Shown here: positions 17,228-60,200 of the stretch, in pieces
Layout: each line of letters opens with the position of its first letter
Numbering within the stretch: position 1 is the first letter of the stretch
IMG/VR virus record: IMGVR_UViG_3300045988_124424
Span: 1-64,000 of that record
DNA: 64,000 bases
Direction: 5' to 3' (one strand)
From: a virus
Made by a program: the position numbers and the translations under genes
The notes under the pieces: model-generated
What the model saw: only the letters and a program-made list of their open reading frames with translations
The model's database searches: none
Told to the model about the DNA's origin: nothing

Positions 17228-17694
17228 TGATAAGAAGTCGCGGCTTATGCCAGGCTTGCAGGAGCAAAGAGTTGACTCCGAAGAAAAAAAACAGAATTAC
17301 ATCCATTAAAAACAGCAGCAAGAAGAAAAAGTTAGAGAGCCCGGATTTATCCGGGTTTTTTTGTCTTATGCTGGAAGAGCTGAATAGTATTCGGATGTCT
17401 ATGACTGGTAGGGCTATCCATTTTCCTACAGTATGTAACGTATGTCACATACTTCCAAAAAGGATATATAAGTCGGTTGCCACTTGCAGAGATAATATAG
17501 TTTTCCTTCATGAATCGGAGCATACGGTATTCGACATGTATCTTGACCGGATGGAATTTGATAAACTTGAAACAGAATTTCCTTTTGTATGGAAGTATGC
17601 GGTAAAGAAGGTATTGGATATGGAAAGCAGGGGAATGATTAAAGAAAGAGGTAGGTTGATTATTGAAATAATTGACAGGTATAACCCCAAATAG
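17173..17694 (+). CDS. Zinc-finger / HNH-like endonuclease candidate (173 aa).
   Basis: N-terminal CxxC...CxxC. Central CNVCH...DN...LHESEH could be an H-N-H arrangement. The last about 6 codons (DRYNPK*) lie inside the repeat family and are duplicated at 27.73 kb. Confidence 0.45.
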   Translation: MESKEKKLYVCERCGRKVMIRSRGLCQACRSKELTPKKKNRITSIKNSSKKKKLESPDLSGFFCLMLEELNSIRMSMTGRAIHFPTVCNVCHILPKRIYKSVATCRDNIVFLHESEHTVFDMYLDRMEFDKLETEFPFVWKYAVKKVLDMESRGMIKERGRLIIEIIDRYNPK

Positions 17695-18047
17695 TATTAA
17701 CCCAATATAATTCTATTATAAAAGTTTAATACATCTCTTTCAGAGATCGGGTTATTAGCCTAAGCCTTGAAACGAAGGCTACGTTATTTGAGAATAGATA
17801 GTTACCAAGGAATGTTTATCCAAGTTTCTTGCTCTAAGGATGGTGATTAAACAGGAGTAGTGTATTTGACGAAACAGTGTTGCCATTATATAAAACCTCT
17901 TATAACATTGGCGATGGGTACTTACAGGAGAAATCATGACTTATCCCTAACGGGATTTACATCTACCAAGGAGACCGAAAGGTCTCCGAGGGGATGTATT
18001 AAAACATACGAATAGCTTTAAATATATTTAATAGAATATGGGATATG
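17678..18047 (+). repeat. Intergenic structured repeat R-A, the longest copy.
   Basis: Homologous to 27730-27939 (direct orientation) and to 47133-47335 (inverted). Contains hairpins ATCTCT-TTC-AGAGAT, GCCTT-GAAACG-AAGGC and GGAGACC-GAAA-GGTCTCC. Carries a 134-bp block, flanked by TACCAAGGA direct repeats, that is absent from R-B. Confidence 0.85.
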
Positions 18048-18218
18048 AGAAAAAAATATAAGGTTACGATAGAAGCTGACGATGAAGTTATTTTCATTGC
18101 CAACATAAAAAGAGGAGATAGCGAGAGATTGATTGATTTTGAGAGAGCGGCCGCAGATATTGATGAGGCTGTAACTGTGTTGTATTATGTTAAAGAGGAA
18201 TTAATTGAGAAATTGAGA
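18039..18218 (+). CDS. Hypothetical small protein (59 aa, MGYEKKYKV...).
   Basis: The ORF starts inside the conserved end of R-A. It is below the ORF-track cutoff. Confidence 0.35.
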
Positions 18219-19531
18219 TGATAGAAGAAAAGATTAAAATATTAACAGATTTAGGGTTTGTCCCTATGGTGGAAGGAGTAGAAAATACGTTGTTTAGAAT
18301 GAACGATGTTGTGATGTCGGTGTCAGATCCTAATCAAACACCGGAGCAATTGAGAAAGGAAGTTATGTCTTTAATAAAAAACAAAGATATAGCAGAAAGA
18401 GGCGGACGGGTTCCAGTAGTTAAAGAGCCTGAGCCAGAGCAGGCCCAGGGAGAAGAACCGGAAGCTCCGGCAGAGGAAGCAGATCCTAACCCTGGAGAGG
18501 AAGATTCGAATCCGTTTACAGAAAATCAAGAAACGTTAGAGCCGTTTTATATCTGCGATGAGTTGAAGAAGATTGAGACTCCCAAATTCGTAAGATTGAC
18601 ATTAGACGATAATCGTTTTTATGTAAGGAAGATGGATGATGGAACGGCCAAGATATATGCTTCGGTAACAACTTTAATCAAAGATGGGTATGTAGATGAT
18701 AAGACCGCACTTCAGGAATGGAAGCAAGAGATGAAGATGCTTGGTCGCAATCCGGAAGAGGTGGCACAGTATGAAGCCGACAGGGGAACGATCATGCACT
18801 ATCTGTACGGATTGTACCTAACAGGTAGAGATATGGTCTTAAATCGAAGCTTTGTAGTTAAGACAGTGCAAGAAGGCAAGCTGAAAATATCTAAGAAAAA
18901 TCTTGATCGGTTTTTTAACAGTATTGATGATCTTGATGATATGATTGTCAGAATTATGAAGTTTGCCAAATTTTGTTCAGAGTATAAGGTTAAGCCGATG
19001 ATGATTGAAAGAATATTGTCATTAGAAGACTATTTAGTAGCTACGCCGATAGATGCGATGGTTAAAATGACATTCAAATACAAAGAAGAAGGTTATTTTG
19101 GAGCCGTGTATCAAAGGGCTACAGGGCAGTTTAAAAAAGGTGATCCGAAGAAGGAGGTAAGAGACGTGGAGAAGGAAGAAGTGGTTATTCTCGACTTTAA
19201 ATCAGGGGGAATATGGGAATCATACGCATTTCAATTAGAAGCTGAAAGAAGAATGGTTAAAGCATGGTATGGGATTGATGCACGTATTATGAACTTTTCT
19301 CCAAAAAGCACGAGCAGCAAAGGATATACGTTGAAAGAATGGACAGAAGACAGTATAGCACTTGAAAAGGCGGACTGCGTGTTCCAACAAGGTATGTTGA
19401 ATCACCTTAGAAAAGATAAGAAGTTCAAAGTGAGAAAAGGAGTGCTGAATATCAATAAGCCGTACAATGAAGAGGATCATACGGTCGTGTATGATATTGC
19501 AGAGGAAATGTCTAAAAGATTCATAATATGA
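18218..19531 (+). CDS. Protein with a C-terminal PD-(D/E)XK (RecB / lambda-exo / YqaJ-like) nuclease domain (437 aa).
   Basis: Motifs SVTTLIKDGY, ATPIDAMVK, VVILDFKSGG (DxK) and FQLEAERRM (QxxxY). A Pro/Glu-rich linker lies in the N-terminal third. Confidence 0.55.
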   Translation: MIEEKIKILTDLGFVPMVEGVENTLFRMNDVVMSVSDPNQTPEQLRKEVMSLIKNKDIAERGGRVPVVKEPEPEQAQGEEPEAPAEEADPNPGEEDSNPFTENQETLEPFYICDELKKIETPKFVRLTLDDNRFYVRKMDDGTAKIYASVTTLIKDGYVDDKTALQEWKQEMKMLGRNPEEVAQYEADRGTIMHYLYGLYLTGRDMVLNRSFVVKTVQEGKLKISKKNLDRFFNSIDDLDDMIVRIMKFAKFCSEYKVKPMMIERILSLEDYLVATPIDAMVKMTFKYKEEGYFGAVYQRATGQFKKGDPKKEVRDVEKEEVVILDFKSGGIWESYAFQLEAERRMVKAWYGIDARIMNFSPKSTSSKGYTLKEWTEDSIALEKADCVFQQGMLNHLRKDKKFKVRKGVLNINKPYNEEDHTVVYDIAEEMSKRFII

Positions 19532-27697: not shown

Positions 27698-27747
27698 AAC
27701 CAGAAGAACTGACCGGGCATTATGATCGGTGTTATAACCCCAAATAG
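27676..27747 (+). pseudogene. Remnant ORF (23 aa) ending DRCYNPK*, matching the C-terminal end of the HNH-like gene 17173-17694.
   Basis: The shared TATAACCCCAAATAG terminus lies inside the repeat family. Confidence 0.35.
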
Positions 27748-27939
27748 TATTAACCCAATATAATTCTATTATAAAAGTTTAATACATCTCTTTCAGAGAT
27801 CGGGTTATTAGCCTAAGCCTTGAAACAGAGGCTACGTTATTTGAGAATAAATAGTTACCAAGGAGACCGGAAGGTCTCCGAGGGGATGTATTAAAACATA
27901 TGAATAGCTTTAAATATATTTAATAGAATATGAGATATG
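27730..27939 (+). repeat. Intergenic structured repeat R-B, a short copy lacking the 134-bp block.
   Basis: Near-identical to R-A over about 210 bp. Hairpin GGAGACC-GGAA-GGTCTCC (the tetraloop differs from R-A). Stem GCCTT/GAGGC retains a G-U pair. Confidence 0.85.
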
Positions 27940-28284
27940 GAATTGATTTTGAAACAGAAGAAGAGGAGGATGAAGAGTATGACTGACGAGGAATTTGTAT
28001 TGGATAATAAGAAAAAGATTATAGTAAGAAAAAGAATATCTTATTTAAACAAAGGGGATAAAGTGTGGATTGTGTCTTCCGACGGGTATCTGCTACACAC
28101 GGACGTGGTTAGAGCCGAACGCGGACGGTCTTATGTGGATATAGACGGTATCCTGTATTGGAAACGAGGATTAGATGGCAAGCATCGTAATCGTAATAAC
28201 TACATGCAGTTCGCCATGACGCCGGAGGACGGTAAGAAGTATGTCGTATATTACCCGGAAGGATTTAAAGACAATGACTTATGA
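27937..28284 (+). CDS. Hypothetical basic protein (115 aa).
   Basis: The ORF starts inside the conserved end of R-B. Confidence 0.5.
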   Translation: MELILKQKKRRMKSMTDEEFVLDNKKKIIVRKRISYLNKGDKVWIVSSDGYLLHTDVVRAERGRSYVDIDGILYWKRGLDGKHRNRNNYMQFAMTPEDGKKYVVYYPEGFKDNDL

Positions 28285-29300
28285 TGGTCCCGGAAACGCA
28301 TTTGCTATATAAGGAGTTTAATGGCGTGAAACGTCTTGCCATATCTTATTCCCAGATAGATACGTTTCTTACTTGTCCAATGAAATGGTATAAGACTTAC
28401 GTGGAGGGCAAAAGGTCTACGGAAAAACAAGAAGCTACGTCTTATGGTACGGTTATTCATAAGACACTGGAATACTTCTTCAAGAACGGAAGACAGCCTT
28501 CTGGCAAAGACCTGGGGGAAGCTATAAGTTACTATGCTTACCAAGAAGACATACCTTGGCAATCACCGGAAAATATGATGATAGCCATGAAGCAATCTGG
28601 AGAGCTTCTTGCTTGGATTGTGGATCTGTTCAAAAAAGACGGCAATAGGTTTATGATAGCTGATGGTGATCTTAATCCCTGCGAGAAACTTATCAGACAC
28701 GGCGCTATAGTTGGAGTCGAAGAAGATTTTGTGCTGCCGTACCGTCTTCCTAAGCCTGTTAACATAAATGGAGTAATTCATACTCATGTGTACATAGTAG
28801 GATCGGTAGACCTTCATCTGGCTATAAAAAGCAAGAACGTAGTTCACCATTATGTCATAGATTGGAAATCAGGTAATAAGGTTTTTGATTCTAAGAAGTT
28901 GGAAACGAATTTACAGCATCCTATATATTCATTTTACATCTATAGAAAATATGGTGGAGTTCTACCAGATATGAACATCTATTTCTTTACCAGAACCAGA
29001 CAATACCAAAAGGTTAAGGTGGATGAGGAACGTAAAACAAAATCTATAGAGATGCTAAATGACACTTTGTCTAAAATGTATGATTTTGAAGATAATAGTG
29101 TAAAATCATTTCAAGCGTACATCCAGGGAGCAGAAGGAGCCAGGTATAGCAAGCGGCGTGCCACCCTAAGCCAGCCTGTTTCGCAAAACAAGCTACCCTG
29201 CCCGTCAGCACTGTGTTATTATTGCGACTTTGGATTACATAACAAAAACGAATGCCCTTTCTCTTCGGATTGGGATCCGTCTAAAAAGATAAAACGATGA
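28281..29300 (+). CDS. Cas4-like / RecB-family PD-(D/E)XK exonuclease with a Cys cluster (339 aa).
   Basis: N-terminal SQIDTFLTCPMKWY. Motifs GSVDLHL, VIDWKSGNK and QHPIYSFYIY (QxxxY). Three C-terminal Cys (CPSALCYYC...NEC) consistent with an Fe-S site. Confidence 0.65.
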   Translation: MMVPETHLLYKEFNGVKRLAISYSQIDTFLTCPMKWYKTYVEGKRSTEKQEATSYGTVIHKTLEYFFKNGRQPSGKDLGEAISYYAYQEDIPWQSPENMMIAMKQSGELLAWIVDLFKKDGNRFMIADGDLNPCEKLIRHGAIVGVEEDFVLPYRLPKPVNINGVIHTHVYIVGSVDLHLAIKSKNVVHHYVIDWKSGNKVFDSKKLETNLQHPIYSFYIYRKYGGVLPDMNIYFFTRTRQYQKVKVDEERKTKSIEMLNDTLSKMYDFEDNSVKSFQAYIQGAEGARYSKRRATLSQPVSQNKLPCPSALCYYCDFGLHNKNECPFSSDWDPSKKIKR

Positions 29301-33180: not shown

Positions 33181-33485
33181 CAATAGAACAACTAAATTAT
33201 TTATTAAGAAAAGAGCTTTATGCTATAAAAAAACATAAAGACAATATTGATAGAATCAAAAAAGAATATTTTGATTCCAATTATGGGTTAAAAGAAGGAG
33301 ATAAGATCCGTATTTTACACGAAACAGGAGATGAAATGATAGGCTTCTTGAAAAAAGTTGAAGTATGTGAAGACGGAGATCTGTACTTGACAATCCAAAA
33401 ACAAAACGAAAAAGGTGACAAAGGCAGAGGAACATGGAATATGTATCTATCATCAAAATCAATTAAAATTGAAAAATGTGTATAA
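33177..33485 (+). CDS. Hypothetical protein (102 aa).
   Basis: ORF. Confidence 0.5.
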   Translation: MTIEQLNYLLRKELYAIKKHKDNIDRIKKEYFDSNYGLKEGDKIRILHETGDEMIGFLKKVEVCEDGDLYLTIQKQNEKGDKGRGTWNMYLSSKSIKIEKCV

Positions 33486-33489
33486 TGTC

Positions 33490-34668
33490 ATGAGAGTGTT
33501 AAGTTTATTTGACGGAATGTCATGTGGTCAAATAGCGTTAAAAGAAATAGGGATCACGCCTGAAGTATATTATGCGTCAGAAATAGATAAGTTCGCTATT
33601 AAACAAACGCAATTAAATTTTCCTAATACGATACAAGTAGGAGATGTGAGGGATTTAAATGTAGAAGATCTTGGACGCATAGATCTTATTTTAGCCGGCA
33701 GCCCATGTACGGATATGTCTTTTTCTGGAAAAAGAAAAGGGTTGTCTACCGTAGAAGGAATAGAAGTCAAATCACTTAATGAGTATCTTGAATTAAAAAA
33801 ACAAGGATTTGAGTTTGCCGGTCAGTCTTACTTGTTCTGGGAGTTTATTCGTATTTTGAATGATGTAAGAAAAACTAATCCTGATGTGTTGTTTCTTCTT
33901 GAGAACGTTAAGATGGGAAAGAAATGGGAGCCGGTATTCGATGATGCTATAGGGTGTAAGGGCAATCATATTAATTCAGCACTTGTTTCAGCTCAAGTCA
34001 GGAAACGTATTTATTGGACTAATATTCAAGACGGCATTATTCCTCAACCTGAAGACGAAGGTTTGACCATAAGTGATATAGCTGAATATGAAGTAGATGA
34101 AAAATATTACTTATCTGAAAAAGTTTTAAACAATTTAGCTTTTCACTTAAAAAGAAATCACGACAAGGGAAATTATTATGGAGCTAATATTAAAACAAAA
34201 GATGAAAAATCCAATACTGTTACCGTAAAGGGTAAATACACGTACGATCTTATTTGTGTAGCAATGAGAGGTAGGAATCCAGAAAAACCTACATGTAGAG
34301 AATCTGGTCTTAAAACAGTTCAGATGATTGAATTTAAAAACGATAGAAAATCCAATTGTCCCACAACAGTTCAGAAAGATAATCTTATTTTCCAAATACC
34401 AAGAGGATTTAACAAAGGTGGATTTCATGAAGATAAGGCTCCAACATTATCTTGTAATTCATATGATAGAAACAATTTTATCATACAGAGAGCATTACAT
34501 GGCGATTTCAGAATAAGAAGATTAACCCCTACAGAGTGCTCCAGGTTACAGACTGTACCAGATTGGTATAAATGGGAATGCAGCGAAACCCAACAGTACA
34601 AGATGTTGGGAAACGGGTGGACTATTAAAGTTATTGAACATATACTTAAAAGAATAAAAGAATCATGA
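33490..34668 (+). CDS. DNA (cytosine-5)-methyltransferase (about 392 aa).
   Basis: C5-MTase motifs: I LFDGMSCG, IV GSPCTDMSFSG, VI LLENV, VIII QVRKRIYW and X RLQTVPDWY...LGNGWT. The start is chosen at the internal ATG (MRVLSLFDG). Confidence 0.85.
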   Translation: MRVLSLFDGMSCGQIALKEIGITPEVYYASEIDKFAIKQTQLNFPNTIQVGDVRDLNVEDLGRIDLILAGSPCTDMSFSGKRKGLSTVEGIEVKSLNEYLELKKQGFEFAGQSYLFWEFIRILNDVRKTNPDVLFLLENVKMGKKWEPVFDDAIGCKGNHINSALVSAQVRKRIYWTNIQDGIIPQPEDEGLTISDIAEYEVDEKYYLSEKVLNNLAFHLKRNHDKGNYYGANIKTKDEKSNTVTVKGKYTYDLICVAMRGRNPEKPTCRESGLKTVQMIEFKNDRKSNCPTTVQKDNLIFQIPRGFNKGGFHEDKAPTLSCNSYDRNNFIIQRALHGDFRIRRLTPTECSRLQTVPDWYKWECSETQQYKMLGNGWTIKVIEHILKRIKES

Positions 34669-46814: not shown

Positions 46815-47156
46815 TTACCTTTCATGAATTATTTGTTTAAAAAGACCAATTCCATCTATTATAATATGACCGCTTTGCATACGACCATTATTAGGATTGT
46901 GTAGAAAATTGAAACCACTTTCTTTTTCCTGTCTTTCAAAAGAACTGATATCCTTTCCTCTACGGGCTCTTTCAAAAGCTTTCTTGAACAACTTGCCTCT
47001 AAAGGTCTTGACGAGGATCTTGGTAGCGTTATTGCCGGCTTTTACCATTGCTTTCCTTGCCTGGTCCTCCGAGACAAAACTGCTTCGGAAAATATACGAT
47101 GCTGCTGTTTGTATGTCCTGCTTGGTATTATTTAAGGTTTTATATAATGGCAACAC
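46815..47156 (-). CDS. Hypothetical basic protein (113 aa).
   Basis: ORF. Its first about 7 codons and upstream region are duplicated, truncated, inside R-A at 17.87 kb. Confidence 0.55.
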   Translation of the reverse strand: MLPLYKTLNNTKQDIQTAASYIFRSSFVSEDQARKAMVKAGNNATKILVKTFRGKLFKKAFERARRGKDISSFERQEKESGFNFLHNPNNGRMQSGHIIIDGIGLFKQIIHER

Positions 47157-47335
47157 TGTTTCGTCAAATACACTACTCCTGTTTAATCACCATCCTTAGG
47201 GCTACGGACTTGGGCAAACATCCGTAGGTAACTATCTATTCTCAAATAACGTAGCCTTCGTTTCAAGGCTTAGGCTAATATCCGGACCATTTATGGTACA
47301 TTAAAACCTTATAATGAAATTATATTGTTTTAATG
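47133..47335 (-). repeat. Intergenic structured repeat R-C, an inverted copy that is direct relative to minus-strand transcription.
   Basis: The reverse complement matches the R-A blocks (GCCTTGAAACGAAGGC...GATGGTGATTAAACAGGAGTAGTGTATTTGACGAAACAGTGTTGCCATTATATAAAACC). The upstream hairpin is replaced by the compensatory ACCAT-AA-ATGGT. Confidence 0.8.
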
Positions 47336-47438
47336 TTATTTCGGATATCAATATATTTACGTCAAACATACAGATATACTTTTTACCCCAATCGATTCTT
47401 TTTATCTTACGACCTAATTTAAGCCGTTCTAAAGCCTG

Positions 47439-48125
47439 TTAGAATGTCATGCCACGACGAGGCAGTTTGAGATACTTTTTAAGTCTGTCGGCAGCTTCAT
47501 TTGGTGTATGGCCATCGTATTCGAAAGCGGTTTCTCTTTCAGGAATATCAAACAAATCCCAGTATTTGCTTTCATAGTGATTAGATACCTGACCGGTAGG
47601 TAGGATCGCCATCACAATAAACCAATCATCAGAACCGAAGCATTTTTCTCCGTCGCTGTGTCTCCTTGATTTGCAAACTTCAACCTGTCCGTTTCTGGCT
47701 AATAGATTAAAGAAGGCGGCGTTATACAACATGCGGTACCGATACAATTCATTGAAAGTGTGGTATCCGTCAGAGACTTCTCCCACGTCTACAGGCTTCT
47801 TGTTTTGAATACTACCCAAAATATTCTCTATATAGAGCTGTATTTTATACAGACCCATTTCGGTGTGGCCGTATTTGTTCAAGATATTATTGACATCGTA
47901 TTGTATATTAAAATCTTTTTCAAATTCTACTTCAGGATGATTAGGATAGCAGTAATCTACTGATGCTTCTAACACAGACTTGATATGCTCTACTATCCTC
48001 GTGGCATCATCATGTTTTAAGAAATTCTTGAATCCCTCAACGAATTTAATATCTTCTTCGATTGTTGATTCGAACTCTTCTTTTGTCATTACTCTAACCA
48101 CATCTTTAAAATCTTTTAATTCCAT
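47439..48125 (-). CDS. Hypothetical protein (228 aa).
   Basis: ORF. Confidence 0.55.
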   Translation of the reverse strand: MELKDFKDVVRVMTKEEFESTIEEDIKFVEGFKNFLKHDDATRIVEHIKSVLEASVDYCYPNHPEVEFEKDFNIQYDVNNILNKYGHTEMGLYKIQLYIENILGSIQNKKPVDVGEVSDGYHTFNELYRYRMLYNAAFFNLLARNGQVEVCKSRRHSDGEKCFGSDDWFIVMAILPTGQVSNHYESKYWDLFDIPERETAFEYDGHTPNEAADRLKKYLKLPRRGMTF

Positions 48126-50695: not shown

Positions 50696-50873
50696 GATAA
50701 AAAAAATAGGCCCAAAAGAGAATGTCAGATCCCACTATGACAAACCCTAATGAGCCAAAAATATCTTTCAACATCAAACAACCAGAGGTGGGATCTCGTT
50801 GTTCATTGTTTCTGGAGCAAAGATAGGAACAGGATTTTAAATAGCAAATATTTTAATACTTTTTAAATCAAAC

Positions 50874-50899
50874 CAGGGCCCGCATCACTGCGAGCCCTG
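50874..50899 (-). terminator. GC-rich hairpin CAGGGCCCGC/GCGAGCCCTG.
   Basis: Downstream of 50983-51180(-). The T-tail is weak. Confidence 0.3.
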
Positions 50900-50982
50900 A
50901 TCTACACTAATCTAAACTAATACCATGAAAAACTTAAATCTAAAAACTAAAGAACACACAAATGTAGGAAAATGTATGCCTT

Positions 50983-51180
50983 TCACAAAGAATCTGTATC
51001 CTGTTCTTTTGTGTGATTCAAGACATAGGATATAGTTCTGATACTTAATCCGGTTTGATTTCGTATCAGATTATAAATATAGGATTTTGAAACTACAGTT
51101 CTTAATTGACCTAAATCATTCATAATGTTTTTATACATAAGATGAATGCTGTTGTTACGTTTGATGGTACTGATTCTCAT
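50983..51180 (-). CDS. Hypothetical protein (65 aa).
   Basis: ORF. Confidence 0.4.
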   Translation of the reverse strand: MRISTIKRNNSIHLMYKNIMNDLGQLRTVVSKSYIYNLIRNQTGLSIRTISYVLNHTKEQDTDSL

Positions 51181-51324
51181 TTCCTACTGTTATTAGTTAC
51201 GTTCGGTTCTTACTTTTTCCTTATTTCCATAATCCCTTCCTGAAACTAATATTGCAAACTTAATAAAAATAATTCATAAACAATGAAAATCTAACTTTTC
51301 TTGTATGTTATTGATATACGTGCA

Positions 51325-51359
51325 TATATAAGAAAAGTGAGACTTTCACAAGCCTCACT
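51325..51359 (-). terminator. Hairpin AAGTGAG/CTCACTT followed by a T-rich tail on the minus strand.
   Basis: Downstream of the 752-aa gene. Confidence 0.35.
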
Positions 51360-51400
51360 TCCCAAATTATAACTATGAAAAAACTATATATATACAAAAA

Positions 51401-53659
51401 TTACCTGCATTCCAATTTGTTAAGATCATCCAATTCAGGCTTGCTTACGATCATATCTTGCGTCAGGCCAGATCTGTTTTGGTATGGAGCGTAATCGGTT
51501 TCTACCGTCTTAACCTTCTGATTAGAATCGTATTTCACCTCCGATTCGGTTCCTGTCAGATTTTGGTAGATAGAGCCGGAACTACTTTCGCTTACTTTAG
51601 ACCATATCTTATTACCTACTCTTATAAAATTATCATAAATACCTTCGGCTGTTATAACACCATCTTGCTCTACGATATTAGGACCCGATTTTTCTTTTAA
51701 CAAATACGGGTGCCTGGTGTAAAAATAGTGTTCAAAATCATTCCCAGCATACGAAGGGTCATACCTCTCCAAATAAAACAATTCTGATAAAGAAGGGTCG
51801 GTACTGGTCATGCTATAATCAAACAACATCAACCTGTCTTTTCCAGATAAAGATAATTCTATTGATTTCAAAATATCAGGATCATCAGAAATAAGACCCA
51901 AAGATGGACCAGGTTTGAAGTCAAGATACTTATAGGCATTATCATATAATTTTGTTTTATGGAGTTTGTTGTCAAGGTAAGATTGGTATAAATCGAATAA
52001 GGATAATGGGTTTTCGCTATCTTGTTTTTTGTTCATGTATCGACTATACTCCCGATCCACATCCACGTAAGGAACGTCAAGTACCGCCGGGTGTCCAAAC
52101 GCCATCCTGGTCATTATCATGTCCTCTGTGTTCTGAGAATCCATGAACGATCTGACGTATTTTTTAATGGAATCCATGAGCGTATTATTATCTACGTTCC
52201 GTACTTTCTCTTTATCCAAAACGCCGTTCTTAAAACAAGATTCAGGATATATTTTAGTAGAAAAATGAGTTAGGTTGTGCTTGGCTAACACTGTTGATAT
52301 TTGATACATCTCGTTAAGATCATCTTTGCTGATCCTTTGATATAGATTATCTCCTACCTTAAGCAATGAATGTTTCTCAAATGCCTCTACTGGGTCTATA
52401 TCGGATTCAGAATAAACGATATTCAAATTATCCATATACTCCGGCAATAATCCAAAATAATAGTCTGTACTATCACCAAGAACATCATCTATAGAAGATG
52501 CCAGCGTTGGAGCATAATTTACATCATTATGCCTGGCCACATAAATATCAAGATCCAGCATCAAATTATCTATCTTATTCAAAGATTCTTCTGTGCCATC
52601 ATAAGTTTCCGATGTCCCTATTATATCTATGCCAAACCACGTACAAGCCTCTTCTATATCCCATATCATGCTTCTTAAATCGGATTCGGTGTCGGCATTA
52701 GCCCTATGTAAATAAGCCGATATACGAGCTCTTAGGAACTCTATTTTGCCAGGATTGTAATAAGACAGATCTTGTAGCTTAGACAAGGATCTTCTCTTGC
52801 CTTCTACCACATCATCCCCTTCTATGTTTATTACCGGAATCTTATTCGTAGATGAGAACTCATCAAACATAGATTCGGCAAATTCTTTATCAGAAACGAA
52901 TTTCTCAACCAGTTCAGGGTATGAGTTTCTCAACGATTCAAAAGCAGATGAAAATTCAGAAAAGTTTTTTATGCCGGCTACTGTTTTACGCATAGCATAA
53001 TAAAGCTCAGAAGGATTATATGGTACCTTTTTACCAAATTGGTTAAACACTCCCTCCTTGTAAACAATAGGACCATACTGATAGTCAACAGACATAAAAT
53101 AATTATCCTTTTCCCTATCATGTTCGTTAATAGAAGAATCTATTAACTTTCTCATGGAAGTCGAAACCTCGTTTAAAACAGAAGGATCGGATAAAATACG
53201 ACTTATTTCTGTTTCATCATACAAACCGGATCTCCTTAATTTCTGCTCATTCAGTATCAAACTGCCATCTACATAAAAATCGAAGAGAATAGCATTAGAC
53301 AATGAAGACGCATTGAAAAAATAATGAGTAGACAAAAGGAAATCCCTTACATCCTTAACATCCTGAGCCGTTAAAGGATCAGCAAAATAAGTCTGACGCT
53401 TCATATACGACAGCACATCTTCTAAAAGAGGTTCGCCATTGGGATCGGTGTTAAACATCTCCCCTGGAGCCGGGTTATTCCAATGACCGTAATACGACAA
53501 AAAACCAGGAGTGTAAGCCTTAGCCCATACCTGAAGGGCCCGCTCGCTGTTTCCTAATACTTTTAAAGCACTTTCGTAAAGAACGGAAGGCTCCCCGTTA
53601 GGAGCCTTAACCCGTTTTATTTCATTTTCCTTTTTTTCTATCTGACATTTGACACCCAT
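51401..53659 (-). CDS. Large virion-associated protein (752 aa), function unresolved.
   Basis: Long ORF. Confidence 0.65.
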   Translation of the reverse strand: MGVKCQIEKKENEIKRVKAPNGEPSVLYESALKVLGNSERALQVWAKAYTPGFLSYYGHWNNPAPGEMFNTDPNGEPLLEDVLSYMKRQTYFADPLTAQDVKDVRDFLLSTHYFFNASSLSNAILFDFYVDGSLILNEQKLRRSGLYDETEISRILSDPSVLNEVSTSMRKLIDSSINEHDREKDNYFMSVDYQYGPIVYKEGVFNQFGKKVPYNPSELYYAMRKTVAGIKNFSEFSSAFESLRNSYPELVEKFVSDKEFAESMFDEFSSTNKIPVINIEGDDVVEGKRRSLSKLQDLSYYNPGKIEFLRARISAYLHRANADTESDLRSMIWDIEEACTWFGIDIIGTSETYDGTEESLNKIDNLMLDLDIYVARHNDVNYAPTLASSIDDVLGDSTDYYFGLLPEYMDNLNIVYSESDIDPVEAFEKHSLLKVGDNLYQRISKDDLNEMYQISTVLAKHNLTHFSTKIYPESCFKNGVLDKEKVRNVDNNTLMDSIKKYVRSFMDSQNTEDMIMTRMAFGHPAVLDVPYVDVDREYSRYMNKKQDSENPLSLFDLYQSYLDNKLHKTKLYDNAYKYLDFKPGPSLGLISDDPDILKSIELSLSGKDRLMLFDYSMTSTDPSLSELFYLERYDPSYAGNDFEHYFYTRHPYLLKEKSGPNIVEQDGVITAEGIYDNFIRVGNKIWSKVSESSSGSIYQNLTGTESEVKYDSNQKVKTVETDYAPYQNRSGLTQDMIVSKPELDDLNKLECR

Positions 53660-53685
53660 TGTAATTAACTTTTTTGCAAAGTTAA

Positions 53686-54225
53686 TTATAAAACCGACTT
53701 ATACAATGACGGATCCCAAACTCCTTCTATATAAATCTCTGGAAAACTCAAACTGCCATCACGAAGAGTGGTGACTTCCAAGCTGGGAATGTTGAAAACA
53801 GTACTGGTATCACCAAACTCACCATTCAACTTGATAGCATTTCCGCTGTTATTAGCCTCATAATAAAAATAACAATAATTTTCATTAATGCTTGGATCAT
53901 ATTCGTACCAATATGTTAGATCTTGTATATGATCTTCTATGTTACCAATTTTGTTTTCACCTAATATAAAAATACCATTATTGCTATGATTATAAACCAT
54001 AGATTCATAACCACCATAATTCCAATTACTATTAAACATTATGTAACTAACATCAGAATCATGATCTTTTAATACAGGTCCTATATGTATATGAATTTTA
54101 TTAAACTGACATACATAAGGTCTTTTTCCTCCAAGCCTTTTTATATCTTCATTGGATAACTTATTATAACATCCTCCCACGAAATTATCCGCAGCATTAA
54201 AAAATCTCCTTCTCATACTCAACAC
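53686..54225 (-). CDS. Hypothetical protein (179 aa), possibly structural.
   Basis: ORF overlapping the end of the giant gene. Confidence 0.5.
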   Translation of the reverse strand: MLSMRRRFFNAADNFVGGCYNKLSNEDIKRLGGKRPYVCQFNKIHIHIGPVLKDHDSDVSYIMFNSNWNYGGYESMVYNHSNNGIFILGENKIGNIEDHIQDLTYWYEYDPSINENYCYFYYEANNSGNAIKLNGEFGDTSTVFNIPSLEVTTLRDGSLSFPEIYIEGVWDPSLYKSVL

Positions 54226-57200
54226 TCCTTATTTAACTCATTTATCGAATCCGAATTATCAGAACCTTCTACGAGATTCTTATTCCTATCTATCTCTTCC
54301 TGGCTCATATTACTCATCATATTTTGTATTTTTCTACCAGATTGAGATAAAGAGCGGATGAATGCACTGGAACTTATCTTAACTCCAAGATTCGGTTTTG
54401 CCCTAAACGCTTCACCGGTACTGATATTATACAAATCATACACACCTGAGTTCATATAGAATTTATATATCCAGTTTCCACCAGCTTTTTTGTATCCTAA
54501 TTTGGTTAGCTCGACTACACTCATACCAAATTTAATGCCATTACGACCCATTATCTTCTCCGGTATAGGTTCTACCTTAGCCGGAACAGATGTATATGCT
54601 TCATCACCGCCGTACAGGAAATAAGGGGTTGTTACCCTTGATATGTGAGTAAGCGGTTCTTCGGATATACGAGGTTCGTCTTTCTCGGCCTTAGATTCTT
54701 TCCTTGGATTGGATATTCTAATAAAAGGATCGTATGTTAAAAAGGTTAAGCCGTATTCTACTTTATAACCTGATACGCCGTTAAGATCCCTTATAGCCTT
54801 AGTCGTATGCGAGTGGTTGATGGTGTCTATCCCGTACCTTGATTCCATATCGGTCATAATGCTATTAACTTCATCCCCCTCTACATAAACCTCTTCTCCT
54901 TCCGGGATAGAGGTTATGCCGGCAGCCCTTCTAAGTAACCATAAAGTAACTTCGGCAATATCAGAGAACTTATCTCCGTTCTTCTTATAGTTATCTACTC
55001 TTCCTTCTTCAGATCCAGGTAAATAGACATCTCCCTCAGCTTTGCCATCATCTCTGGGTTGTCCTTCTCTTTTTCCATCTCCCTTTTTATCGCCATCTTC
55101 CTCAGCGCGTACTGCACCGCCTTCTGCACTTCCTTCTTTTCCATCATTTAAAATATTATCTGATTCTGACTCTATAGACTCCACAACAGCATCATACTCT
55201 GGAATGCCGCTAAGGAAATCTGCTACGTTATTCAAAAACTCTATTTTTTCCTCGTTTGTCATATCAAGGCTTTCCATAGGTCTCCATATGGCAGGCAGGT
55301 TATTTAATTCTATTGCAGTAGAAACATCTTCTACAGTTTGATTATCTACCGTAGGCAAAACTTCAGAAACCAAACTATTGATGTCAGATTCCATTTTTTC
55401 TACTTCCTCTTTTGTGCCATATTCTTTTAGGGCATCCATGCCATTGACTCTAAGAGAATAATTCAAAGCCTTGCTTGGAACAAAATTAATATATTTCAAA
55501 AAGTTTTTCAACTCTGATATAATTTGTTCGTCAGATCTTGGACCAACATAATCAACCACCACCTGATCTGTTTGAGAACGAAGCCAAGAAACATATTCTT
55601 CTAAGGTCTTACCTCCCTTTTTAGAAGGAGTGGATATTTTATCACCTACTGTTCCTTTAGGTTCTAATCCCATTTCTTCCTTAAGGCTTTTAGGATTACC
55701 TCTCTCACGAAGAAACCTCAAATCACCTCCTACAATCTTCCTTGCTATAAAATCAAAAATATTAGCATAAGACGGCAATCCTTCTTTTTCTATATGAGAT
55801 TCTATTTCGTTTAACATAAGAGGGAAGTTTCTCCTGGAGGTACGCTTCTTGCCAGGTAAAGACCGCGCAGCTTGTGCCGCAGGAGTCGGCTGAGCTAATG
55901 GCGCCGGCTGAGTCTCCCGGACAGCCCCTTCCTCTGGCATTTCCTCTTCATAAACATCCACGTCTTCTTTAGAAGTAACGGTCTTACCCTCATCAGAGAA
56001 AGGAAGATCATCCTCTATAAGTGATTTAGGTCTGGAAGATGATTTACCAAACTGAATCCTGATCTTAGGAGCAACAAACATCTCACCTTCGAAATCTATT
56101 CCAGATTCTACTTCAGACGTCACAATGTCTTTCACACTCCTACTTCCATCTTCTACCCACTTAACAACATCAGGAACTGTAGATAATTCTTCTATAGCCT
56201 CACGAGCTTTTCTAAGACCTGAAATAGGATTCAAATACGATACTTGATACGAAGCCGGATCAAGACCTAACTTGGTTAGATACGCATTAAGATCTTGTAT
56301 ATCATCTTGACTCATCTGTAGCAATTCAGAATCACCGGATTCAAGCAGCATATCTATAAAAGACATCCATTTCCGCCCTTCCTCTGATTCCACAGAACGT
56401 AGGCTAACTGGGAAAAGATAATTAAGACCGTTTTTACCTTTGATGACAACTACCGGAACTCTTACATTTTTGTAATTATTCCCCTTGTCATTTAATATAG
56501 AATAAGCAAATGGGAAGCCTGTGTATTTAGATCCGTTCTTAAGCACGACTTTGCCATTTAATACATATCCGACATCAGATACTTTTTCAGCACCTTTTTC
56601 GGTAATAGGGAGATTTTCTACCTGGCCATATCCTTGACCGTTCACCTTCATGTTAAACACCGGTCTTCCGGGAAGGGTCTGGGCAACAACATGCGTGCCG
56701 ACGCCGATGGTAGCCGACCGGCCGGCGTCCTTCTTCCACTTGTTGAAAGCCGTTCTTCTTATCTTACTTATACCATCTATGCCTCCTGTATCAGCTTTTA
56801 CAACAGAAACGAATCTGTTCCCACTCATGACCTTGATAACCATATTGGATACCAGTTTATTCTCAGCAGATTCTATTCTTTTTTTATCGCCGGACTGAAC
56901 AGCGTCATTGTATTCGGCAAAAAGAGACTGATTATAGGTATCATTTACATCTATTTCGAGATTAACCTTATCTCCTTTTTTCAAAGAAGATAATGCTTCC
57001 TGATCTATTTTATCTACCTCATTCTCTCCGAATCCGACACCTGTTCTGTACGGAACCAATTCATCTGAATCAAGACGCTTATAAACCAAAGAATAGGAAT
57101 TACCCACGTCCTGAATAGACACGTCTGTGTAACGGTTAAGAACACGAGCCGATTCTTTGTCTATAGACCATCTCGCATGATAAGGCAATTCAATTATAGT

Positions 57201-60200
57201 AGCCGTTTCTCCACCTATATTAAGAGAATACCTTTTAGTGCCATTAGCGTTCGTTTCAGAGCTTATTTGAATAGGAACCAATGATTTTATAGAAGATATA
57301 AATTTATCGGCTCTAAGACCTGCAATTTCATACCTTTCGTTGCCATCGTTGGATATTCTTCTAACCATCAACGTCTCTGGATTCTGGGCGCTATCTATGT
57401 TAGCTCCAGGCGTATTATCGGATTCATCTAACTCATTTACAAGAGAATCTATATTGGTATCATCCTCCCCAAAATTACTTAACGTAGATTCGGAAATACG
57501 ACCTTTATCAACAATCCTGTTTTGTTCGATATAAGGAAGGAGATCTGTGATGTTTCCAACCTGGCCAAGATCTTCTATGGTAAATACCGAATCGGCAAGC
57601 TTATCTTCGTCAACCTTCTCCCCTTTATCCCGTCTGTTCATTATATCAACATACGAAGAAATAGCATCATCAAGTTCCTTCCTTTGATCTGGTTCTAAAT
57701 TGGATTTAGCCATATCAATAATAGCTTTATTTTCCTCATATACTGATCTCGGACTTGTAAGTCTGTCAGCCTTTTCAGATAATGATTTTATGAGATTAAT
57801 AGGGCTGTCACCTAAAGACGACACATAATCATCAAAATCTTGTTTGTATTTATCATACACATCTTTTTCTCTCGCAGTAAGAAGATCAGCATTTCCTGTA
57901 TATAATTTATCAATTATAGACTGCCTTACTACCGGAACCATAATAGGATTATCCATAGCAGCCTCATAATCTTCATCTGATACAGACTCCGTAAGCGGTG
58001 ACTCTTTTATATTATCTTCCGCTTCCTTCATCCTATCTTCTCTTACTCTATCAAGAGCATGCATAAATGCTTTAATAGTCCAAGCTTCGTCTTCCGAAAT
58101 CTTACCTTCTGACACAGCTTGATCTACTACCTCATCAGTGTCATATTCACCGACTTTATTAGGCTCTGCAAAATCAGGAACCTTGTCATCCCCCTTATAA
58201 GGAGTAGACCATAGAGAAGACAGCGCTTTTGAAAATCCCCTGTTTTCCTCAGCTAAGAATCTTTTATCAAGCATCTTAGACAAGAAATTATTCATATTCC
58301 TATAGTCCATCAAACTCCTACGGTATTCATTTACCAAGGATCTCATGGCTTTGTCTTTGGCTGTAAACTTCTTTTCCTGTCTTGATTTTACATTAAAATA
58401 ATCATCAAAAGCCACAAGAGTATCATAGGCTTCTATTACATCTTGTGAACTTATGGGAGAAAGAGGAGATGATAAAACAGATTCGGTTTTACTTACCAAC
58501 TCTTCTATCGAAAACTCTTTTCCTATTAACGTTGATAACTCAGACAACGAATTATTGTAATTGGTTCTAAGATCTTCCAATTCTCTGGTTTTTCGTTGTA
58601 TGGACTCAGCTTGTGGGTCTTTTCCATCTACGTTACGGGGACGGGTGGCAAGATCTTCTATTTCGGATTCAAGTTCTTCTATTCTTGACCGTATGCCACG
58701 GATAGCCATCGCCCGCTCCCTTGCCCTGTCCGACAGCCGGGAGAACGTACTTAGAGCATCCGCCACGCGAGGCTGCCCCGAAAGCGTTTCTATGACAGAA
58801 GCTATGTCTTTCATTCTTGATTCTGATTGAAGACCAAGGAAGGCATTACGAGCCACGTATTTCCTAAACTCAATCTTAGAATCATCACCTATAAGATCTT
58901 CGGCAAAACTCTGGGCAGATCTGAAATCCGAAAGACGATTGTTATAATTATCAATAATAGAATCCTTGTATTTCTTTGCCTCTTCCAAAGACATTCCATT
59001 AGCTTCGGCTATTTCCGAAATAGGCATCATATCAATCATCTGCCTAAAATTTTCAGCCGAATCCTCTAAGGTTCCCATTTGGTTGTCAATAGACATCTTT
59101 TCAAACATAGCATCATCAAGCTCCTTGCCAGTCATAGACTGGGCATCGGAACGAACTTGAGGCCCTAAACTCATTGATTTTTTCAACGTATTCAAAGCCG
59201 CCGTGTTAAGATTAGAAGATGCTTTGTTGTATTCATTCACTTGCCTTTCCAGCAAGATCTGACTATTGCTATACTCTTTAACCCCAAAGAAGCCTTCCCT
59301 CATACCAAACAAAGAACCGATAATAGCACCGATTCCTATTTCAGTCCATCCTTCTTTAGACGTATATTGCTTTTTAAATCCTTCAGAAATAGCATCAAGA
59401 ACATCAACGGCTCCGTTCATGGCTACATTATCATATCTTGACTTAACATATTCCTCAGCCGTATTCTGAACAGCACCTTGAGATCCTTCTTCCCATAAGC
59501 CTTCGGACACCGGCCTTTTCATGATATTGAAAACATTGCCTGCTATCTTTTGTCCTATATTGGGATTGGTTATTTTAATAGCCATCTCTCCCGGCTTCGC
59601 AACTTCCGTCCCTAATCCAAATAAATGCTTGTTGAGCTTCTTTTCCAACCCTGGTATAGCCTTGCCTCCTAACCCTATATACTTACCAAAAAGAAGCCAG
59701 TTAGATAATCCTACTATACCCATATTGGCGGCAAATATAGCACTACCTACATCAGCATTAGAATTACGAAAAACAGCCATTTCCTCTGCATTGGGATCAC
59801 GACCATAAATCTTACGATAATAATCCTTGAAATCAGACTCAGATTGCTTCATAAAAGAATTTGCTTCAACCGATGACTCGAATCCGGCACTGGTAGCCAA
59901 CAACGTCATGGTTTTAGCCGCCTCCCCTACATTTCTTCCGGTAGCAACTCCTTTTCTTACATAGTCATTAAACACGCTTTTAAGGCTTCCTATACCCCTA
60001 TTTGCAGCTTGCCTTGCTGCTAACTTAGCTCCGATTCTTCCACCTAATTTAGCACCTATATTGCCCAATGATCCAACTCCAAGTCCTCCGGTCATGTACG
60101 CTGATATCATGGCTCCTACGGTAAAAGACATTCCGTTACCAAGGACATCATTCCATAAGAAATTACCGGTATCCTTAAAAAGCTTCTGACCGAAATTATA

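What the first reader, a model, noticed from the sequence alone, without database searches (positions are those of the whole stretch)
17678..18047. Three-copy family of structured intergenic repeats (17.7, 27.7 and 47.2 kb) with compensatory stem changes
About 200-370 bp elements occur at 17678-18047 (R-A), 27730-27939 (R-B) and 47133-47335 (R-C, inverted). Each lies immediately upstream of the following gene in that gene's transcription orientation. They share three hairpins. One is GGAGACC-G(A/G)AA-GGTCTCC with a GNRA loop. One is GCCTT...A/GAGGC. The third is ATCTCT-TTC-AGAGAT in R-A and R-B but ACCAT-AA-ATGGT in R-C, which is a compensatory replacement of the stem and suggests selection on RNA or DNA secondary structure. 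The conserved ends run into the start codons of the downstream genes (ATATTTAATAGAATATG).
Basis: seen in the sequence. Interest (0 to 1): 0.75.

Follow-up and report, generated by a model that had tools for sequence, protein, structure and literature searches.

The report
Orphan IscB guide-RNA transposon remnants
The three repeats are copies of the guide-RNA (HEARO / omega-RNA) part of an IscB transposon, the ancestor of Cas9, that has lost its nuclease gene; one copy is intact and two are broken, so this is a known kind of element found in a gut phage.

Summary
The repeat family is real, and its identity is known. R-A (17681-18044, +) matches Rfam HEARO (RF02033) over its full length at 95.4 bits, above the 83-bit gathering score. 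HEARO is the omega-RNA scaffold of IscB/IsrB transposons.

No iscB gene lies next to any copy or anywhere in the window. More than 100 related gut-phage contigs carry the same RNA directly upstream of a 394-426 aa IscB (RRXRR + HNH domains).

- **R-A** is a 364-nt ORF-less mini-element: omega-RNA, a 3' hairpin and the AT-rich transposon end.
- **R-B** (27734-27936) is the same element with a ~160-nt internal deletion between 9-bp direct repeats.
- **R-C** (about 47127-47348, -) is the first ~220 nt of a full IscB element. A ~2-kb deletion cut off the rest.

The closest phage, csAssE-Sib, has clean empty sites for R-A and R-B. Insertion is exactly 5' of ATGAG or ATGGA, the known ISC target N|ATGR, which here is the start codon of the next gene.

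They are omega-RNA helices, supported by covariation across 120 sequences.

Standalone omega-RNAs that work in trans with IscB are already described. This is a new member of a known kind. Whether R-A is still active is inferred, not shown.

The parts
17665..17680 (+). Left flank of R-A (GAAATAATTGACAGGT). If the RNA is made by read-through from the upstream NinG-like gene, this would be its 16-nt guide.
   Evidence: Position directly 5' of HEARO model position 1. The guide role is inferred from IscB biology (10.1101/2023.03.14.532601). The csAssE-Sib empty site differs at 1 of these 16 bases. There is no other match in the window with 2 or fewer mismatches.
17681..18044 (+). R-A: complete ORF-less mini-ISC element, 364 nt (omega-RNA, 3' hairpins and AT-rich transposon end).
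   Evidence: Empty site in csAssE-Sib is GACAGAT|ATGAGAAAAC. The same 356-369-nt unit occurs in about 30 loci from other phage contigs, in at least 8 flank contexts.
17681..17925 (+). HEARO / IscB omega-RNA scaffold within R-A.
   Evidence: Rfam RF02033, 95.4 bits against a gathering score of 83, E 3.1e-18, model positions 1-211 of 211. Covariation on alignment A3.
17733..17747 (+). It is an insertion relative to the Rfam model.
   Evidence: Shown as lower-case insert in the cmscan alignment. At least 10 different stems occupy the same position in relatives. In helix 6, 4 of 5 pairs have a change on both sides.
17763..17780 (+). It follows the 5' strand of the pseudoknot (GCCTA, 17758-17762).
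   Evidence: Helix 9 is 97.3% paired, with CG->AU in 20 sequences and UA->CG in 27. Structure line.
17943..17998 (+).
   Evidence: Minimum free energy -32.3 kcal/mol for 17926-18044, z = -3.87, 0 of 200 shuffles as stable. The L004-type element keeps the hairpin with changed pairs (GGGAACC/GGTTCCT, ACATTCC/GGAATGT).
17999..18044 (+). AT-rich right end of the element. By the convention in which the omega-RNA lies at the right end, this is the transposon left end.
   Evidence: Similar to the short tail after the iscB stop codon in full-length elements such as L015 (GAATAGATTTAATAAATTTAATAGAA).
18045..18049 (+). ATGAG: target / TAM-like motif immediately 3' of R-A. Its ATG is the start codon of the 58-aa ORF 18045-18221.
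   Evidence: ISC target N|ATGA is described in PMC4810608. The GstIscB TAM is TTCAT, reverse complement ATGAA.
27734..27936 (+). R-B: the same mini-element with a ~160-nt internal deletion between 9-bp direct repeats TACCAAGGA (17804-17812 and 17964-17972 in R-A; single copy at 27856-27864). It lacks most omega-RNA helices and the pseudoknot 3' strand.
   Evidence: No Rfam match even at E<=10. Empty site in csAssE-Sib is GTGTT|ATGGAATTG. Full-length 364-nt copies occupy this same site in other phages, e.g. L024 and L100. The deletion junction was not found in IMG/VR.
27937..27941 (+). ATGGA motif 3' of R-B. Its ATG is the start codon of the 115-aa ORF 27937-28284.
47127..47348 (-). R-C: the 5' ~220 nt of the omega-RNA of a full-length IscB element from a sister subfamily. 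It is truncated by a ~2-kb deletion.
   Evidence: HEARO 66.1 bits, below the gathering score, with the pseudoknot 3' strand missing. It is 98.6-99% identical to the 5' part of the elements in L015 and L046. L015 (410-aa IscB) and L067 hold about 2.0 kb where the window has about 7 nt. csAssE-Sib has 1036 nt with three small ORFs here instead.

Best explanation
The repeats are insertions of an IscB-type (ISC, IS200/IS605 superfamily) mobile element that is common in human-gut phages.

**Shown**
- R-A is a 364-nt derivative that lost iscB. It keeps the complete omega-RNA (HEARO) scaffold, a 3' hairpin and the AT-rich transposon end.
- R-B is that same derivative after a slippage-type deletion between 9-bp repeats. 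It is no longer a recognisable omega-RNA.
- R-C is the stump of a full-length IscB element, left by a ~2-kb deletion.
- The elements insert without target duplication exactly 5' of ATGR, co-oriented with the flanking genes. In surviving insertions this ATG is usually the start codon of the next gene.

**Inferred**
- Read-through transcription from the upstream gene yields an omega-RNA whose first ~16 nt come from the left flank.
- An IscB supplied in trans would load this RNA. The source could be a full-length sibling element in the same phage genome, a co-infecting phage or the host.
- The complex would cut unoccupied alleles, that is the flank sequence followed by ATGRR, in related phages.
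- Recombinational repair would then copy the mini-element in (homing).
- Rare moves to new ATGR sites would need a Y1 TnpA transposase in trans.

I put identity as an ISC/omega-RNA remnant family at about 0.9. I put current trans-activity of R-A at about 0.4. R-B and R-C are inert.
For: **Identity**
- Rfam HEARO full-length hit above the gathering score for R-A, and a sub-threshold full-length hit for R-C.
- Covariation supports the Rfam structure on 120 sequences.
- In most of more than 118 IMG/VR contigs, the same RNA is followed about 190 nt after the search pattern by a 394-426 aa protein. Two of these proteins were scanned and both carry RRXRR and HNH domains.
- That protein is homologous to OgeuIscB (7utn/7xht, E 3e-39).
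- The right end of R-A resembles the tail after the iscB stop codon in L015.

**Insertion behaviour**
- Clean empty sites in csAssE-Sib, with junctions at N|ATGAG and N|ATGGA.
- All ORF-less copies whose ends could be determined are flanked by ATG[GA][AT], in at least 8 flank contexts.
- This matches the published ISC target N|ATGA (PMC4810608) and the IscB TAM TTCAT, reverse complement ATGAA (10.1101/2023.03.14.532601).

**Recent mobility or gene conversion of the ORF-less unit**
- Copies at different sites are 97-100% identical, while copies at one site fall into clusters only 88-93% alike.

**Trans use is plausible**
- Standalone omega-RNAs are reported to work in trans with IscB (PMC10691335, PMC9581776).
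- One related phage contig holds both an ORF-less copy (L032) and an intact IscB element (L087).

**Decay of the other two copies**
- R-B and R-C.
Against: - No IscB is encoded in the 64-kb window (tblastn, all E > 1).
- None is found in 9.9 kb beyond its end in a contig 100% identical to the window over 50853-64000.
- None is found in the closest complete phage, csAssE-Sib. A partner nuclease for R-A is therefore not demonstrated.
- No Y1 transposase was found in the window.
- R-A has non-canonical pairs in helix P1 and in the long closing helix.
- R-A has a C-to-A change in the CAGGA/TCCTG hairpin that all but one of the aligned relatives keep intact.
- Transcription, RNA ends and cleavage are untested.
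- The csAssE-Sib empty sites each carry one mismatch to the putative guides in the half nearest the motif.
Confidence: 0.8

Rival explanations
1. All three copies, R-A included, are inert fossils. An IscB element invaded this phage lineage, lost its gene, and the remnants are drifting neutral DNA with no current RNA-guided activity.
For: No iscB in the window, in the 9.9 kb beyond it, or in the nearest complete relative. Two of the three copies are plainly broken. R-A carries several mispairs.
Against: R-A still scores above Rfam's gathering threshold over the full model. The ORF-less unit sits in at least 8 contexts at 97-100% identity and does not cluster by site, which points to recent spread or conversion after gene loss. 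ORF-less copies differ from each other by paired changes in helices, such as AAG-GAA/TTTCTT against TAC-GGA/TCTGTA.
Confidence: 0.4
2. The mini-element has been co-opted as a cis-acting leader (promoter, 5' UTR or translation-initiation region) for the gene whose ATG it abuts.
For: R-A and R-B end exactly at the start codons of the 58-aa and 115-aa ORFs and are co-oriented with them. So the last ~45 AT-rich nt of the element now form the translation-initiation region. Promoter-like hexamers occur inside the element.
Against: csAssE-Sib expresses the same genes without the element; there the upstream gene overlaps the start codon. The ATG adjacency is fully explained by the N|ATGR target. R-B tolerates loss of ~160 nt. 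The promoter scan is consensus matching only and may not suit the host.
Confidence: 0.1
3. A previously undescribed family of structured regulatory RNAs, such as a riboswitch or phage sRNA, unrelated to transposons.
For: Conserved hairpins with compensatory changes.
Against: Full-length match to a curated Rfam family. Linkage to IscB in relatives. Insertion polymorphism at a transposon target motif.
Confidence: 0.02

Closest known systems
HEARO RNA (Rfam RF02033), the omega-RNA of IscB/IsrB OMEGA systems
   Same: Same scaffold. R-A aligns to all 211 model positions at 95.4 bits. The helices covary and the pseudoknot strands are present. Relatives encode IscB directly downstream.
   Different: There is no iscB downstream in this window. 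This phage clade has an extra variable hairpin (17733-17747) and extra 3' hairpins that are not in the Rfam model.
Standalone omega-RNAs, reported as mobilised, lacking an effector and working in trans with IscB (cited in PMC10691335 and PMC9581776)
   Same: An effector-less, evidently mobilised omega-RNA unit present at several sites.
   Different: The described cases lie in the same genome as effector-containing loci. Here co-residence with iscB is shown only for a related contig (L032 + L087), not for this phage. The setting is a phage genome, with insertions at gene start codons.
ISC transposons and ORF-less IS200/IS605 derivatives (PATEs) (PMC4810608; 10.1101/2023.03.14.532601)
   Same: Insertion without target duplication immediately 5' of ATGA/ATGG. 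Non-autonomous. Empty and occupied alleles both found. Subterminal hairpin near the end.
   Different: Classical PATEs keep only the transposase-binding ends. This derivative keeps the whole ~300-nt guide-RNA scaffold. No Y1 transposase was seen nearby.
Homing endonuclease genes and mobile introns of phages
   Same: Presence/absence polymorphism between closely related phages at identical sites. The predicted spread is by cleavage of the empty allele and recombinational repair (concept reviewed in PMC13565253).
   Different: Recognition would be RNA-guided, and the nuclease is not carried by the element itself. No intron family matched in Rfam.

Membership tests
HEARO / IscB omega-RNA (RF02033) | Covariance-model score at or above Rfam's gathering score (83 bits) | tested here: met
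   R-A scores 95.4 bits over the full model. R-C scores 66.1 bits, below threshold. R-B has no hit at E<=10. Membership therefore holds for R-A only; the other two are fragments.
HEARO / IscB omega-RNA (RF02033) | Conserved multi-helix structure supported by covariation | tested here: met
   80.2% of cells paired against 34-43% with slid partners. Covariation score 0.272 against 0.10 or less. 0 of 500 shuffles reach it. Helices 9, 12, 13 and 14 are 97-99% paired with many double changes. The structure was taken from Rfam and the alignment from MAFFT.
HEARO / IscB omega-RNA (RF02033) | Pseudoknot between the strand 5' of the GCCTT hairpin and the 3' region (GCCUA with UUGGC) | tested here: met
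   R-A forms 4 of 5 pairs. Family-wide, 78.8% of cells are paired and one pair covaries strongly (CG->UA/AU in 20 sequences). The 3' strand is absent from R-B and R-C.
HEARO / IscB omega-RNA (RF02033) | Located directly upstream of an iscB/isrB gene | tested here: not met
   Downstream ORFs are of 58 and 437 aa (R-A), 115 and 339 aa (R-B), and small ORFs (R-C). There is no IscB similarity anywhere in the window. The feature is met in most related loci.
HEARO / IscB omega-RNA (RF02033) | RNA is expressed, carries a 5' guide from the flank and directs IscB cleavage | not testable with these tools
   No expression or biochemical data are available. This is inferred from the literature.
Non-autonomous ISC / IS200-IS605 element (PATE-like) | Precise insertion at a short specific target without target-site duplication, with empty alleles in relatives | tested here: met
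   The empty sites GACAGAT|ATGAG and GTGTT|ATGGA in csAssE-Sib match N|ATGR. The shared T/AT at the junctions makes the exact cut ambiguous by 1-3 nt.
Non-autonomous ISC / IS200-IS605 element (PATE-like) | Multiple near-identical copies at unrelated sites | tested here: met
   At least 8 flank contexts, with copies 97-100% identical across sites.
Non-autonomous ISC / IS200-IS605 element (PATE-like) | Subterminal hairpins recognised by a Y1 TnpA, with a TnpA available in trans | tested here: inconclusive
   A strong conserved hairpin lies 46-86 nt from the right end, but whether TnpA binds it is unknown. There is no TnpA in the window. Only one weak partial hit was found in L046, using from-memory queries.
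Standalone omega-RNA acting in trans | A compatible IscB encoded elsewhere in the same genome or cell | tested here: inconclusive
   Absent from the window, from the adjoining 9.9 kb and from csAssE-Sib. Present together with an ORF-less copy in related contig IMGVR_UViG_3300045988_112249 (L032 + L087). The rest of this phage's genome and its host were not available.

The most novel reading that the evidence does not exclude
ORF-less omega-RNA mini-elements are active 'guide-only' parasites of IscB in gut-phage populations. They borrow IscB from sibling elements during infection or co-infection. They home into empty ATGR sites at gene start codons, and they act as recombination points that shuffle neighbouring phage modules. 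This would give standalone omega-RNAs a biological role, which the literature still calls unknown.
Probability: 0.3. Interest if true: 0.6.

Novelty: new member of a known kind. Interest (0 to 1): 0.4.

Why it matters
The finding turns an apparently new 'structured repeat' into a recognisable element: the guide RNA of a Cas9-ancestor transposon that survives without its nuclease.

The published role of such standalone omega-RNAs is stated to be unknown (PMC10691335). This abundant gut-phage lineage offers natural occupied and empty alleles, defined guides and target motifs, and sibling IscB genes. That makes trans-guided homing directly testable.

It also matters for annotation. These ~360-nt blocks are annotated as intergenic or as small hypothetical proteins (for example in phage PF672P2), and they may break metagenome assemblies.

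Tried and rejected
- **Other RNA families.** The Rfam gathering scan of the whole window gave only HEARO, with no group I/II intron, riboswitch or sRNA family. Permissive scans around R-B gave only chance-level hits.
- **tRNA or tmRNA.** None in the window.
- **IscB in the window.** tblastn with two phage IscBs found nothing better than E = 1.3. The 417-aa ORF at 33415-34668 looked like a candidate by size. By its motifs (read by eye, not run against Pfam) it is a cytosine-5 DNA methyltransferase.
- **The two downstream nucleases as partners.** The 339-aa ORF after R-B is an ordinary PD-(D/E)XK exonuclease, and the 437-aa ORF after R-A has no Pfam hit. csAssE-Sib has both genes without the elements, so I dropped this idea.
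- **Source genome via the R-B deletion junction.** Zero matches in IMG/VR.
- **Extra targets for the three putative guides.** No site in the window with 2 or fewer mismatches is followed by ATGR.
- **Literature on IscB in crAss-like or gut phages.** Nothing specific found.
- **Sigma-70 promoter scan.** It gives more matches than shuffles but is uninformative for this host.

Full report
**1. Observation**

The three elements exist and are clearly related.
- R-A and R-B share 132 nt at 98% and 84 nt at 96% identity. R-A and R-C share a 159-nt inverted arm at 91% (sequences).
- R-B equals R-A minus about 160 nt. The missing stretch lies between two copies of TACCAAGGA (17804-17812 and 17964-17972). 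R-B keeps a single copy at 27856-27864.
- R-C shares only the first ~220 nt with R-A. It has a different 5' ~70 nt and lacks the GGAGACC hairpin.

**2. Identity**

A whole-window Rfam scan at gathering thresholds gives exactly one hit. Positions 17681-17925 (+) match HEARO (RF02033) at 95.4 bits against a gathering score of 83, E 3e-18, over model positions 1-211 of 211.

HEARO is the RNA found upstream of IscB genes, now known as the omega-RNA guide scaffold (10.1101/2023.03.14.532601; PMC13565253).
- R-C matches the same model over its full length at 66.1 bits, below threshold, with the pseudoknot 3' strand missing.
- R-B gives no match even at E<=10.

**3. No nuclease here, but one in the relatives**

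None of the ORFs next to the repeats is an IscB.
- After R-A come ORFs of 58 and 437 aa. The 437-aa product is annotated 'DNA replication factor' in csAssE-Sib.
- After R-B come ORFs of 115 and 339 aa. The 339-aa product is a PD-(D/E)XK nuclease.
- After R-C come small ORFs and then a 2137-aa protein.
- tblastn with two phage IscBs finds nothing in the window.

An exact-pattern scan for a conserved 29-nt stretch of the RNA found it widely.
Most are 50-250-kb contigs, and many come from a single IMG dataset that I take to be human-gut derived.
- It also hit 34 bacterial genomes, mostly Lachnospiraceae and Erysipelotrichaceae MAGs.
- In most viral loci a 394-426 aa ORF starts about 190 nt after the pattern.
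- Two of these proteins were scanned and both have the RRXRR and HNH domains. One was compared with solved structures and is homologous to OgeuIscB (7utn/7xht, E 3e-39).

So this RNA family normally belongs to a full IscB element.

**4. What each copy is**

*R-A.* Homology between R-A and full-length elements runs from the left end to about 17944. It resumes in the last ~45 nt, which resemble the short tail after the iscB stop codon, for example in L015. R-A is therefore an internal-deletion derivative: omega-RNA plus transposon end.

This 356-369-nt unit is itself a repeated entity. It occurs in about 30 loci from other phage contigs, in at least 8 different flank contexts.

*R-B.* At the R-B site, other phages carry the undeleted 364-nt version, for example L024 and L100. 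The R-B deletion therefore most likely happened in place. Its junction is not found in IMG/VR.

*R-C.* R-C is 98.6-99% identical to the 5' part of IscB-bearing elements in L015 and L046. At the same site, L015 and L067 have about 2.0 kb where the window has about 7 nt. L015 encodes a 410-aa IscB there.

R-C is thus the stump of a full element. The deletion also removed about 0.7 kb of phage DNA and the ATG of the next gene. That gene now opens with a GTG inside R-C.

**5. Insertion sites**

The closest deposited phage, csAssE-Sib (OR575929.1, 151 kb, human gut, 90-96% identity), lacks R-A and R-B and shows clean empty sites.

| Site | Empty allele (csAssE-Sib) | Occupied allele (window) |
|---|---|---|
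| R-A | GACAGAT\|ATGAGAAAAC | GACAGGT[ATAACCCC...GGGAT]ATGAGAAAAA |
| R-B | GTGTT\|ATGGAATTG | GTGTT[ATAACCCC...GAGAT]ATGGAATTG |

- There is no target duplication. The shared T/AT at the junctions leaves 1-3 nt of ambiguity.
- Every ORF-less copy whose end could be determined is followed by ATG[GA][AT].
- Full-length elements likewise end just before an ATG (by inspection).
- This matches the published ISC target N|ATGA (PMC4810608). It also matches the IscB TAM TTCAT, reverse complement ATGAA, with the omega-RNA lying at the transposon right end.
- In four of five distinct right-flank contexts, this ATG is the start codon of the next gene. This holds for the ORFs at 18045 and 27937 and for the 178-aa and 177-aa ORFs in L004 and L083. 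It also appears to hold in Parabacteroides phage PF672P2 (L005).

The simplest reason is that insertions at internal ATGR sites disrupt genes and are lost. That reason is inference.

**6. Structure**

I projected the Rfam consensus structure of R-A onto a MAFFT alignment of 120 distinct sequences (A3) and counted pairs.
- 80.2% of cells form standard pairs, against 34-43% when partners are slid by 1-3 columns.
- 53 of 78 pairs show a change on both sides.
- The covariation score is 0.272, against 0.10 or less for slid partners. No shuffle of 500 reaches it.
- The core helices (9, 12, 13, 14) are 97-99% paired.
- The 5' helices score lower, because MAFFT aligns the divergent bacterial subfamilies poorly there.

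- **Hairpin 2 (GCCTT/AAGGC)** is helix 9, with CG->AU and UA->CG replacements.
- **Hairpin 3 (ATCTCT/AGAGAT against ACCAT/ATGGT)** is a clade-specific insert relative to the Rfam model. It has at least 10 different stems at the same position.
- **Hairpin 1 (GGAGACC-GNRA-GGTCTCC)** is the tip of a longer hairpin at 17958-17998, in the part of the ORF-less element 3' of the Rfam model. For 17926-18044, z = -3.87. The L004-type element is only ~70% identical yet keeps this hairpin through paired changes. Its role is open: omega-RNA terminal stem, TnpA-binding subterminal hairpin, or a leftover terminator.

**7. Dynamics**

ORF-less copies do not cluster by insertion site.
- The window's R-A is 98% identical to copies at the R-B site and at a third site in other phages.
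- It is only 93% identical to other copies at its own site.
- Site-B copies fall into clusters 88-100% alike.
- Some loci share one flank but not the other, for example L064 against the R-B site and L054 against L083.

This pattern fits repeated invasion or gene conversion, with recombination at the element, after iscB was lost. It does not show which enzyme is responsible.

**8. Mechanism**

*Shown:* identity, insertion polymorphism, target motif, structural conservation, and decay of R-B and R-C.

*Inferred:* R-A is transcribed by read-through from the co-oriented NinG-like gene. It acquires a ~16-nt guide (GAAATAATTGACAGGT) and could direct a trans-supplied IscB to empty alleles followed by ATGRR, which would drive homing.

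*In favour:*
- Standalone omega-RNAs are reported to function in trans with IscB, and their role is called unknown (PMC10691335, PMC9581776).
- One related contig carries both an ORF-less copy and an intact IscB element (L032 + L087).

*Against:*
- No IscB in the window or in csAssE-Sib.
- None in 9.9 kb beyond the window in a contig 100% identical to it over 50853-64000.
- No TnpA in the window (a crude search).
- R-A has a few mispairs.
- Each csAssE-Sib empty site has one mismatch to the putative guide. At 5-10% background divergence this is expected by chance.

**9. Verdict**

This is a real feature, correctly seen as structured RNA, but already explained in kind. It consists of orphan and decayed copies of an IscB omega-RNA element. 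Novelty is limited to the setting: a gut-phage lineage, start-codon sites, and an ORF-less unit that seems to keep spreading.

Noticed in passing
window 1-215: At least eight tandem copies of a ~22-nt unit (AAATCCAATAGATAAGCGTTTT), some spaced at 32-33 nt. This is an iteron-like array at the very start of the window, possibly a replication origin or a genome-end feature.
   Followed up: no
L158 1172-2254 (contig 100% identical to window 50853-64000, about 8.7 kb beyond window position 64000); also L163 15278-16417: A TnpB gene (OrfB_IS605 + Cas12f1-like_TNB, 360 aa) lies just outside the window. The phage therefore also carries the other OMEGA nuclease family. Its own RNA and ends were not examined.
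   Followed up: partly
window 47349-48125 (-): The WDGH-domain gene (47439-48125) ends early compared with the 251-aa DUF2829 protein of csAssE-Sib. The DUF2829-like coding sequence continues in another frame for ~90 nt, until the R-C insertion point. That point is an internal ATGG in csAssE-Sib.
   Followed up: partly
window 46815-47156 (-): This 113-aa ORF lost its original ATG in the deletion that truncated R-C. It now begins at a GTG inside the omega-RNA remnant. An internal ATG near 47042 with an AAGGAAAG upstream could be the real start.
   Followed up: no
contig ERZ1755070 NODE_36_length_63298 (locus L158): Extrapolating its coordinates, this contig from the same strain should end near window position ~17.87 kb, inside R-A. 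That suggests the repeats break short-read assemblies. This is an inference coordinates and was not verified.
   Followed up: no
L036, L055, L074, L093 (right ends of IscB elements): In these loci, the sequence just after the element's right-flank ATGG looks like a tRNA gene (…GGTTCAAGTCCGGCCGGGTCCA). It was read by eye and not run through ARAGORN.
   Followed up: no
L005 3451-3664 (Parabacteroides phage PF672P2, OP172820.1) and L004 2420-2661 (MT838317.1): Both deposited phage records carry orphan HEARO RNAs above Rfam's threshold (130.4 and 89.4 bits) with no iscB next to them. In PF672P2 the region is annotated as a small hypothetical protein on the opposite strand.
   Followed up: partly
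window 18218-19531 and 28281-29300: The second gene downstream of R-B is a PD-(D/E)XK exonuclease (Pfam). The second gene downstream of R-A, 437 aa, has a similar-looking D..(D/E)xK motif by eye but no Pfam hit. Both genes exist without the elements in csAssE-Sib, so the pairing is probably coincidental.
   Followed up: partly
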